64,000 nucleotides of DNA from positions 29,822,001-29,886,000 of the forward strand of contig OX597832.1 of assembly GCA_951406725.2 (NCBI GenBank). Reading direction: 5' to 3'. This DNA is from Octopus vulgaris (taxonomy: Eukaryota). Numbering within the stretch: the stretch's first letter is position 1; the number at the start of each line of letters is the position of its first letter. The notes beneath the pieces were generated by a model. The model worked only from the letters and a program-made list of their open reading frames with translations. It did no database searches and was not told the DNA's origin. Positions 44,301-47,300 of this stretch are shown here, piece by piece. The translations under genes and the position numbers were made by a program.

Positions 44301-47300
44301 GCTCAAATGGTGCTTTATACGTGCCACTGGCATGGAAGCCAGTAGGCTGCTCTGGCAACGATCATGCTCGGATGGTGCTCTTAGCACTCCACTAGCACGG
44401 ATGCCAATTATTGAATTTGATTTTGATTTCACTTGCCTCAACAGGCCTTCGTATGCAGAGTTTAGTGTCCAATGACGGAAAATTATACATAAGTGGGCTG
44501 GTTACACCCCTGGTATAGGCCAGGTGTTATGGTCTCGCTTGGCTTGCCATGTCTTCTCAAGCACAGCATATTTCCAAAGGTTTTGGTGACTAGTCATTGT
44601 CTCGGTGAGGCCTAATGTTCGAAGGTCAAGCTTCACCATTTCATCCCAGGCCTTCCTGGGTCTACCTCTTCCACAGGTTCCCTCAACCCCTAGGCTGTGG
44701 CACTTTTTCACATAGCTGTCCTCATCCATTCTCACCACATGACCATACCAGCATAGTCGTCTCTCTGCCACACCACATCTAATGATTCTTAGGTCCAACT
44801 TTTCTCTCAAGGTACTTACACTCTGTTGAGTATGCACACTGACATTACACATCCAGCAGATCATACTGGCTTCATCCCTTGTGAGCTTACGTATGTCTTC
44901 AGCAGTCACGACCCGTGTTTTACTGATATGTAGCATGGCTGTTCGTACACATGCGTCATACAGTCTGCCTTTTATTCTGAGCGAGAGGCCCTTTGTCACC
45001 AGCAGAGGTAAGAGCTCTCTGAACTTTGCCCAGGCTATTCTTATTCATGCAGCTACACTTTCAGCGCACCCACCTACACCATTGACTTGGTCACCTAGGT
45101 AATGGGAGCTATCAACTACTTCTAGTTTTTCTCCCTGGAACATGGCGGAAGTTGTTCTCTGCACATTTTCAGTGTTTATTTCTCCTGAGCATCTGCCACA
45201 TACTAAAACTATATTCCGAGTTAGCCTTACTTTGATATCGCTGCACCACTTATGTGTCCATAGCTTACACTGAGTACATCTCATGGAGTTTCTACCTATG
45301 CCATTTTTACAGATCAAGCAGGGTCATCTACATGAAGGGATTTGTGATTTCTCAGCTTTCCCACTTATAAGGACTTTGGTTTTAGCTACTTCTGGTAGTG
45401 ATTCAGTCCCTTAGAAATATTCTTCAATGCCATAAAGCAATATGTAACTACTTACTGACCATTCCCTTTACTTGAATGTTACCAATGTGCCAACGACTAT
45501 TCACAGGATTCCTGAAATTTCTATAAACAAGTTGGAAAAAATATATTGAATAATGTACATAGGCATTTCCATTGAAAAGACTAGTTACCATTCATCTTTT
45601 GGCATTTTCTTCCCATTTCAGGAAACATTGGATCCGTAATAGTAGTATCACAATCTGATATGAGATATTGTATGGTGAATAACGAGCGCTATAATCTTGG
45701 AAGTCAATTCTCATTCACCGAAGGGTGTTTCAAGTACACCTGTATGTGTTACCGTAATGGATCTTGGGAATGTCCTGGATCGGACTCCCAATACATCTGT
45801 GATCGGGACACAGATTGGGCAAGGATACCAGGTATGTCACAAACATATTTCTTTTCTTACCAATTCTTAAAATAAAATATTGTCTCTTTTCTTCATAGCA
45901 ATGAAATATTCATCTACAAAATATAATTAAGACTCATTTAACAGTTTACAATATTTATATTTCACATCATGTTATATGATATTTTCTAATTTATATAGAA
46001 ATATTTGGACATTTTCAAATTCTTCATTTATATGTATTCCTAAAAGATTCTCAAAAAGATATATTATTCGAATATCAACTTTTACTAAACTAAGTTGATG
46101 ATTGTGTTTACATTACAATCAAAGGGTTTCTTGGAGATACGTGAATATGTCCCTCTTCTCCTTCATTTTAGTTTCAAGCAAAAGATTCTACGTAATCTAT
46201 CAAAAAGATACAGACAGCTGTTTTGCTAATAACCAAAGATATCCATTTGGAGAACCATTCTCTTTTGTTTTGGATTGCTTCCGTTACAATTGTCAGTGTT
46301 TCCTCAATGGATCCTGGGAATGTCCTGCAGATAGGTCACAATATGTGTGCCATGACAGAACACAACCACATCCCACAAGACCACAGCCCACAAGAGCACC
46401 AAGAAATGAGGGTAACAAATATGTTCTATTAATTTCCAATTATCATATGTAATTTGTGTCACAAACTAATGTAGGTTTTGCATAACGATATTTCTGGAAA
46501 TAATCAAATATTCTTTTCCTCCAGTTCAATAAATTTATTTTCCAAGAATTTATTTACACAGGAATATTATTACGGTATCGTCAATTAGCAATCCCATCAT
46601 TTTGTTATTGATTGATTATTGACAAGAGAAATTTATATTTTACATGCAGTCCATAAGTTGTGATCATCAGCGATGTATCATGTTATAGCAAACGAGGATT
46701 ACAATATTTATCAAATTTACACCTGTCATTAGAGTTGAAGGAAGTGTAATTACCAGGTGTTGGCATGAAATAGAAAGATCACCATTCCATCGCTTTAAAT
46801 GTCTAAGTTTCATTAGAAATAGGTGGAAGAAATTGAAGGGTTCAATCATTAAGTTTGGTCTTTAGTTGTCTTCAACAAACATTATGAATTCAAATTGATC
46901 TCAGCAAATAACAGGGTTTTTTTGCTACAGAACTGTGAGAGAAACATGATTCATAAGATACGTAGAAGTTGTTTTTTGAATTAACATTTAGTGTCACGAT
47001 ATTTCTATATCATTAATTGGGAGCTAATTACTATTGCATGCAGTCTGTTAGAATTATCCTTGGATATCATAAACTAACATCTAACATCTTACTGACCATT
47101 CCATGTATTTGAACTATGTACAATAATCATTCATAAGATTCCAGAAATTTCTATAAACAAATTACAAAACAGAATGAATAATATACATTGGTATTTCCAT
47201 CGAAAATGTCTATTTATCATTCATCTTTTGCCATTTTCTTCCCATTTCAGGAAACATTGGATCCATAATAGTAGTATCACAATCTGAGATAAGATATTGT

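What the first reader, a model, noticed from the sequence alone, without database searches (positions are those of the whole stretch)
45330..45430. Duplication breakpoint is a chimera of two different LINE copies
Seen: upstream of unit 1 the old LINE (40070-40925, minus) reads ...[16 protein letters not shown]... At every later unit junction (45386, 49874, 54358, 58845, 63331) the same TESLPEV sequence is fused directly to [10 protein letters not shown] of the younger LINE copy, skipping roughly 20 codons of RT. The two LINEs are related, in the same orientation, and have different 3' flanks. Inference: the four-exon unit arose by slightly out-of-register recombination between two intronic RTE-like copies, so retrotransposons seeded the domain expansion.
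Basis: partly seen in the sequence, partly recalled or inferred. Interest (0 to 1): 0.72.

Follow-up and report, generated by a model that had tools for sequence, protein, structure and literature searches.

The report
LINE-LINE junction in octopus exon array
In an octopus gene built of repeated cysteine-rich exons, the newest 4.5-kb, four-exon repeat is bounded by a junction that joins a younger retrotransposon copy to the tip of an older one 60 bases out of step, likely by short-match end joining and not by true recombination, an ordinary kind of rearrangement that likely set this one repeat unit but did not start the older exon array.

Summary
Observation confirmed. All 5 junctions (45386, 49874, 54358, 58845, 63331) join a younger RTE-like LINE, cut at AKTK, to the 19-bp 5' tip of an older copy. 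Against octopus RT P0001 exactly 20 codons are missing, and 28 of 29 measurable relatives keep the full spacing. Interpretation only partly supported. The copies are 66.6% identical, the join is 60 nt out of register with 1-3 bp of microhomology, and in-register matches of up to 16 bp went unused. That fits the non-homologous class of TE-associated rearrangements, not recombination. Near-register placement has about 2% chance given the two introns, so guidance by LINE similarity stays open. LINEs did not seed the array: 12 domain exons precede the unit, and a homolog has at least 19 divergent domains. The array's end lies outside the window and no genome is held. Host: Octopus vulgaris predicted secreted protein. 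New member of a known kind; interest low.

The parts
40070..40913 (-). Old, decayed LINE copy (RT C-terminal part, 5'-truncated at ESL; 6 frameshifts, 8 stops)
   Evidence: 25 of 65 conserved RT sites changed, about 20% DNA decay (inferred by simulation)
40895..40913 (-). 5' tip of the old LINE (ESLPEV), the only part of it inside the repeat unit
43960..45385 (-). Young LINE copy: CAT-repeat tail at 43960, about 580-bp 3' UTR, ORF end with PHD-like finger, cut at AKTK
   Evidence: 10-11 of 65 conserved sites changed, about 7-8% DNA decay (inferred)
45385..45388 (.). Junction 1, young LINE to old-LINE tip; 1 bp microhomology needed by the Ala codon, 3 bp likely; repeated at 49874, 54358, 58845, 63331
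45386..45404 (-). Copy of the old-LINE tip fused to the young LINE
40895..45385 (+). Unit 1 (4491 bp)
45386..49873 (+). Unit 2 (4488 bp); first 1.6 kb is a distinct haplotype, 3-3.7% from the others
49874..63330 (+). Units 3-5 (4484, 4487, 4486 bp), 0.2-0.3% apart
63331..64000 (+). Start of unit 6, cut by the window end
41131..41340 (+). Exon A2 (210 bp, phase 1-1, one six-cysteine domain)
41681..41920 (+). Exon B2 (240 bp, phase 1-1)
42760..42969 (+). Exon A3 (210 bp, phase 1-1)
43313..43552 (+). Exon B3 (240 bp, phase 1-1)
42150..42560 (+). Paralogous empty site of the young LINE insertion (TCATCA at 42173-42178) and the flank that should follow the LINE natively; never found behind the young LINE in the window
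38557..38578 (-). Diverged copy (20 of 22) of the old-LINE tip before exon A1, with no LINE body; left edge within 0-12 nt of the junction point
15400..39546 (+). Upstream part of the host gene: N-terminal hydrophobic (likely signal peptide) exon and 12 older domain exons
   Evidence: identical to Octopus vulgaris predicted protein P0061

Best explanation
The junction joins a younger LINE copy to the 19-bp tip of an older copy 60 bases out of register, and it likely formed after both copies were in place, by end joining or a replication template switch on 1-3 matching bases, the two LINEs likely being hit because they fill most of their introns. Steps: (1) the old LINE inserted before exon A2 (presence shown; age about 20% decay inferred); (2) the young LINE inserted at a TCATCA site after exon B3 (site shown by the empty paralog; age about 7-8% inferred); (3) a break in the young LINE was joined to position 40895, duplicating four phase 1-1 exons in frame (junction and frame shown; order and pathway inferred); (4) unequal crossing-over between 4.5-kb units raised the number to at least six and homogenised them (copy number and mosaic haplotypes shown; process inferred).
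For: Out of register by 60 nt; 66.6% identity, microhomology 1-3 bp, longer in-register matches unused. In PMC9675761 (passages) homology-driven events must rebuild a full element and have median microhomology 17 bp and LINE-1 similarity 93.5%; non-homologous ones have median 1 bp and 47.9%, and make up 60 of 96 LINE-1 events. Given these two introns, random ends both fall in LINE 32-40% of the time. Timing: 10 of 65 conserved RT sites are changed in both young copies tested, whereas units differ by at most 3.7% and by 0 of 41 bases at the edge, which suggests the LINE is about four times older than the duplication. A 94%-identical 1.15-kb paralogous block nearby was a far better recombination substrate.
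Against: Landing within 60 nt of register has only 1.7-2.5% chance given the two introns, 4-8% given both ends in LINE (a post-hoc test with assumed intron lengths). Concerted evolution can erase unit divergence, so the timing argument is soft. The two exon pairs' least-homogenised introns differ by 16-19%, about twice the young LINE's decay, which fits a duplication at insertion time. The second tip at 38557 with nearly the same left edge is not explained.
Confidence: 0.43

Rival explanations
1. Homeology-guided end joining: the two LINE copies paired loosely, the mismatched duplex was cut, and the ends were joined near but out of register.
For: Same family and orientation; within 60 nt of register, chance 1.7-2.5% given the introns. 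PMC4356517 (passages) shows that 15-30% diverged Alus direct end joining to their vicinity without an in-register chimera.
Against: Divergence here is 33%, beyond the tested range. That assay scored deletions in human cells only. One junction cannot separate guidance from chance.
Confidence: 0.25
2. Insertion-coupled duplication: the young LINE primed at 43960, its cDNA stopped at AKTK (an ordinary 5' truncation), switched onto the old copy's tip 3 kb away and copied 40895-43959 as a giant target-site duplication; later crossovers multiplied and homogenised the unit.
For: One event explains insertion, truncation, short microhomology and duplication. At insertion time the copies would have been about 77% alike (inferred), inside the 15-30% range. 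Pair introns are 16-19% apart, about twice the LINE's decay. Duplications are 14 of 152 L1-mediated rearrangements in tumours (10.1101/2024.08.27.596794, passages); L1 cDNA joined to endogenous L1PA3 in two events (PMC13526784, passages).
Against: Unit 1 matches later units at 41 of 41 edge bases; P about 0.002 if they had diverged 15% without conversion. Units differ by at most 3.7%. Precedents are somatic human events.
Confidence: 0.22
3. The junction is a later deletion: ordinary crossover between paralogous exon blocks first made a larger unit, then a deletion from the young LINE to the next old LINE trimmed it to 4.5 kb.
For: A 94%-identical block 38582-39713 / 42570-43720 exists; 445 of 493 TE-associated rearrangements in PMC9675761 are deletions.
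Against: Needs an extra event; no untrimmed unit in the window.
Confidence: 0.07
4. Assembly artefact, or ESLPEV is host DNA that resembles the LINE by chance.
For: Units 3-6 are 99.7% alike; the tip block also occurs at 38557 with no LINE body.
Against: An X1 contig crosses the junction without differences and an X4 contig starts at it; units carry distinct haplotypes; the tip is in frame and gap-free with the old LINE, and relatives P0019 and P0020 read LPELE at this place.
Confidence: 0.03

Closest known systems
TE-mediated rearrangement, non-homologous class (TEMR-NHE; PMC9675761, passages)
   Same: Both breakpoints in same-family, same-orientation elements; flanks do not overlap on the consensus; microhomology under 5 bp; low similarity; 4.5-kb size close to the LINE-1 median of 4,469 bp; higher-order amplification also seen there.
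   Different: Octopus RTE-like LINE, not human L1 or Alu; here it duplicates four in-frame coding exons.
Homeology-influenced NHEJ between diverged Alus (PMC4356517, passages)
   Same: Out-of-register join inside two diverged direct repeats.
   Different: Shown for deletions at 15-30% divergence in a reporter; here a duplication junction at 33% divergence, guidance unproven.
Retrotransposition-mediated duplication / cDNA template switch (10.1101/2024.08.27.596794 and PMC13526784, passages; the Gilbert 2002/2005 model is recalled, paper not held)
   Same: 5'-truncated LINE bridging a duplication junction with short microhomology, joined at an older copy.
   Different: Those are somatic or cultured-cell L1 events; here unit divergence looks younger than the LINE.
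Octopus RTE-2_OV (PMC9115989, passages)
   Same: Single ORF of about 1,100 aa in relatives, zinc finger next to RT, 3' UTR about 600 nt.
   Different: 5 of 5 published primers tested match the two copies at no more than 14 of 20 bases (some may lie outside the region held); identity with that element is not shown.
Fibronectin type I / VWC-like modules
   Same: Predicted two-sheet fold (pLDDT 90.5); best Foldseek hits are FnI modules, TM about 0.6; phase 1-1 exons.
   Different: Best E 0.036, no Pfam hit for 2 of 2 exons; six cysteines; a lead only.

Membership tests
TEMR, homology-driven (true LINE-LINE recombination) | Chimera rebuilds a full element, flanks overlap on the consensus by the microhomology length | tested here: not met
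   20 codons missing against relatives
TEMR, homology-driven (true LINE-LINE recombination) | Microhomology 5 bp or more and high similarity (LINE-1 median 93.5%) | tested here: not met
   1-3 bp; 66.6% identity
TEMR, non-homologous class | Both breakpoints in different copies of one TE family | tested here: met
TEMR, non-homologous class | Flanks do not overlap on the consensus; microhomology under 5 bp | tested here: met
   60-nt gap; the 3-bp figure is inferred from the old copy's Leu codon because no family DNA was available
TEMR, non-homologous class | Both elements existed before the rearrangement (un-recombined parent in the last unit) | not testable with these tools
   array runs past the window, no genome held; indirect dating favours it
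Homeology-influenced end joining | Repeats 15-30% diverged | tested here: inconclusive
   33% today; about 23% if the event dates to the young insertion (inferred)
Homeology-influenced end joining | Excess of junctions near register over chance | tested here: inconclusive
   single event, P 0.017-0.025 given the introns, post hoc
Insertion-coupled duplication | Intact 3' tail at a target site, 5' end joined to distant DNA | tested here: met
   tail at TCATCA with empty paralog; no short TSD; also expected under the other models
Insertion-coupled duplication | Last unit ends in an empty site with no LINE | not testable with these tools
Insertion-coupled duplication | Duplicated flanks as old as the LINE | tested here: inconclusive
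   four-exon units at most 3.7% apart against about 15% expected, but conversion is evident; pair introns 16-19%
RTE clade LINE | One ORF with APE endonuclease and RT; 3' short tandem repeats (features recalled) | tested here: met
   relative P0002 has Exo_endo_phos and RVT_1 in 1071 aa; CAT-repeat tails in 4 of 4 copies with a 3' end
RTE clade LINE | RT tree placement among named RTE elements | not tested
   no clade-labelled references among the hits

The most novel reading that the evidence does not exclude
A single germline retrotransposition event duplicated coding exons: the young LINE's cDNA switched onto an older copy 3 kb away and copied the exons between as a giant target-site duplication that was fixed and then amplified, with the old LINE's tip reused as a breakpoint more than once (38557, 40895).
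Probability: 0.2. Interest if true: 0.6.

Novelty: new member of a known kind. Interest (0 to 1): 0.27.

Why it matters
Transposons are often said to have driven cephalopod gene innovation; this locus gives a base-resolved case in which a LINE-LINE junction bounds an in-frame expansion adding at least 17 domain exons to a likely secreted protein. It also shows the limit of that claim, since the array is far older than the unit and the join lacks the marks of recombination. If the last unit has an empty site, it would be a fixed example of insertion-coupled exon duplication, which the papers I read describe only in tumours and cultured cells. I found no paper on this locus (open-access library only).

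Tried and rejected
No whole genome is held, so the last unit could not be read. A metagenome scan for family DNA gave 16 loci, best informative match 51% protein identity, none octopus-like and none used; microhomology therefore rests on codons. No RNA holder was listed; no statement on expression. Laying four runs on 13.3 kb was swamped by high-copy LINE contigs, and the joint and loose-end tables were cut. I tested whether the old LINE extends past 40913 (YSIEEYF resembling YADD): profile scores there are mostly negative, rejected. I tested whether ESLPEV is host intron because it recurs at 38557: rejected. DNA folding at the breakpoint gave only weak structures, -2.3 to -4.9 kcal/mol, so a hairpin cause is unsupported. 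No TSD was found for the young copy or 3 of 3 other fragments. RTE-2_OV primers did not match. Pfam gave nothing for 2 of 2 exons; atlas hits were under 0.9. The B2-versus-B3 synonymous count had an off-by-one error and is discarded. Earlier-findings look-ups were empty. Paper searches returned nothing; searches gave nothing I used. No supplements were read; repeat consensus files in PMC13282606 or PMC9115989 could bear on family name and junction microhomology.

Full report
Setting. The window holds an octopus gene. Its exons match the predicted Octopus vulgaris protein P0061 at 100% from an N-terminal hydrophobic exon at 15400 onward; only its last two domains have no exact match in the window. 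Each exon encodes one six-cysteine module. The eight exons checked in detail are 210-240 bp, phase 1-1, and all 20 exons of units 1-5 are open with AG/GT ends. The predicted fold resembles fibronectin type I and VWC modules, but only at E 0.036 and with no Pfam hit. Twelve domain exons precede a tandem array of 4484-4491 bp units starting at 40895, 45386, 49874, 54358, 58845 and 63331.

Observation. It is as described. The old minus-strand LINE aligns gap-free with octopus RT P0001 over residues 141-176 and stops matching at about 40913. The five later junctions read ESLPEV then AKTK, so residues 147-166 are missing. Of 60 relatives, 30 carry YADD; 28 have 36 residues from YADD to KTK, one has a private deletion and one could not be measured. 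The gap thus belongs to this junction, not to the family. Two relatives read LPELE here, and the tip scores above all but one other hexapeptide among 127,960 in the window. One X1 contig crosses the 49874 junction with no difference, an X4 contig begins exactly there, and X2 and X6 contigs bridge the old LINE into the tip; the tables were cut and X1 may be the assembly's source.

The young LINE's site. Its CAT-repeat tail starts at 43960. The paralogous intron after exon B2 has the same left flank and a TCATCA at 42173-42178 with no insertion. The sequence that follows this empty site occurs only at that place in each unit and never behind the LINE. So the LINE's 5' side is not its native flank; the junction is a rearrangement. 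No short TSD is seen, here or at three other fragments of the family.

Is it recombination? The copies are 66.6% identical (506 of 760). They share 17 in-register exact runs of 7-16 bp, none used. The join has one base that must be shared and probably three, judged from the old copy's Leu codon. In the human survey PMC9675761 (passages seen), homology-driven events rebuild a whole element with median 17 bp of microhomology, while non-homologous events have median 1 bp and much lower similarity and are 60 of 96 LINE-1 cases. This junction falls in the second class. A simple null, with both ends uniform in the two introns, puts both ends in LINE 32-40% of the time and within 60 nt of register 1.7-2.5% of the time. 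That is suggestive but post hoc. Loose pairing followed by end joining is documented for Alus at 15-30% divergence (PMC4356517, passages); 33% is beyond that range.

Dating. At 65 RT sites conserved in distant and near relatives, the old copy has 25 changes and the young copies 11 each, 10 shared; by simulation this is about 20% and 7-8% DNA decay (versus close relatives 26 of 160). These values sit near the two octopus TE waves at distances 0.2 and 0.09 cited in PMC13282606 (passages). Units differ by at most 3.7%, units 3-6 by about 0.3%, and no unit differs in the first 41 bp. Taken at face value the LINE is several times older than the duplication. Against this, the units are mosaics, so conversion may have erased older divergence, and the least-homogenised introns of the two exon pairs differ by 16-19%, about what an event at insertion time would leave.

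Mechanisms. Best (0.43): microhomology joining or template switch after both LINEs were present, then unequal crossing-over. Rivals: the same but guided by LINE similarity (0.25); duplication made by the young LINE's own insertion, its cDNA switching to the old tip (0.22; precedents in 10.1101/2024.08.27.596794 and PMC13526784, passages; the older Gilbert model is recalled only); a deletion trimming a larger unit (0.07); artefact (0.03). The last unit separates the insertion model from the others, and it cannot be seen here.

Did LINEs seed the expansion? Only this unit at most. The 12 upstream exons and the A/B pair duplications are older, and homolog P0062 carries at least 19 domains with median 52% and maximum 68% pairwise identity, with no homogenised block.

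Unexplained. A 20-of-22 copy of the tip stands at 38557-38578 before exon A1, after an AT microsatellite, with no LINE body; its left edge is within 0-12 nt of the junction point. Exon A3's intron lacks the tip and starts to match 10-20 nt further right. This may be breakpoint reuse, which would weaken the case for LINE pairing, or blurred ends beside a microsatellite.

Verdict. A real, well-read breakpoint of a known class, in a new host and a coding array. Searches found no paper on the locus. Interest 0.27; 0.6 if the insertion-coupled model holds.

Noticed in passing
window 38557-38578: Copy of the old-LINE tip with nearly the same left edge as the junction but no LINE body; possible breakpoint reuse.
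   Followed up: partly
window 45386-46960: Unit 2's first 1.6 kb is a distinct haplotype (3-3.7%) and shares an SD change with the diverged A domain that P0061 places beyond the window, hinting at exchange with a distal pair.
   Followed up: partly
window 15400-64000: Host gene: likely secreted protein with 33 six-cysteine FnI/VWC-like exons in the window; the public model P0061 has only 18 domains and skips most unit exons. Function unnamed; only one other homolog found (P0062).
   Followed up: partly
window 34306-34510, 34785-34960, 37067-37526: Three more short 3' fragments of the same LINE family, all on the minus strand with CAT tails, so five copies in 11 kb share one orientation (antisense to the gene).
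   Followed up: no
window 38582-39713 and 42570-43720: Exon pairs A1B1 and A3B3 are 94% alike, with the upstream intron only 2.7% apart, yet B1 has the short 225-bp form of B0; a likely conversion tract.
   Followed up: partly
window 6666-6974 (minus): RT fragment of a different non-LTR family (weak tblastn hit, E about 1e-6).
   Followed up: no
window 38285-38550 and 35355-35480: A high-copy fragment between two AT microsatellites, and a stretch that looks like a mariner end (label recalled, not tested).
   Followed up: no
window 62933-62939: Unit 5's LINE has a 1-bp deletion; unit 3's has two changes within 13 bp of the junction, one making a stop.
   Followed up: no
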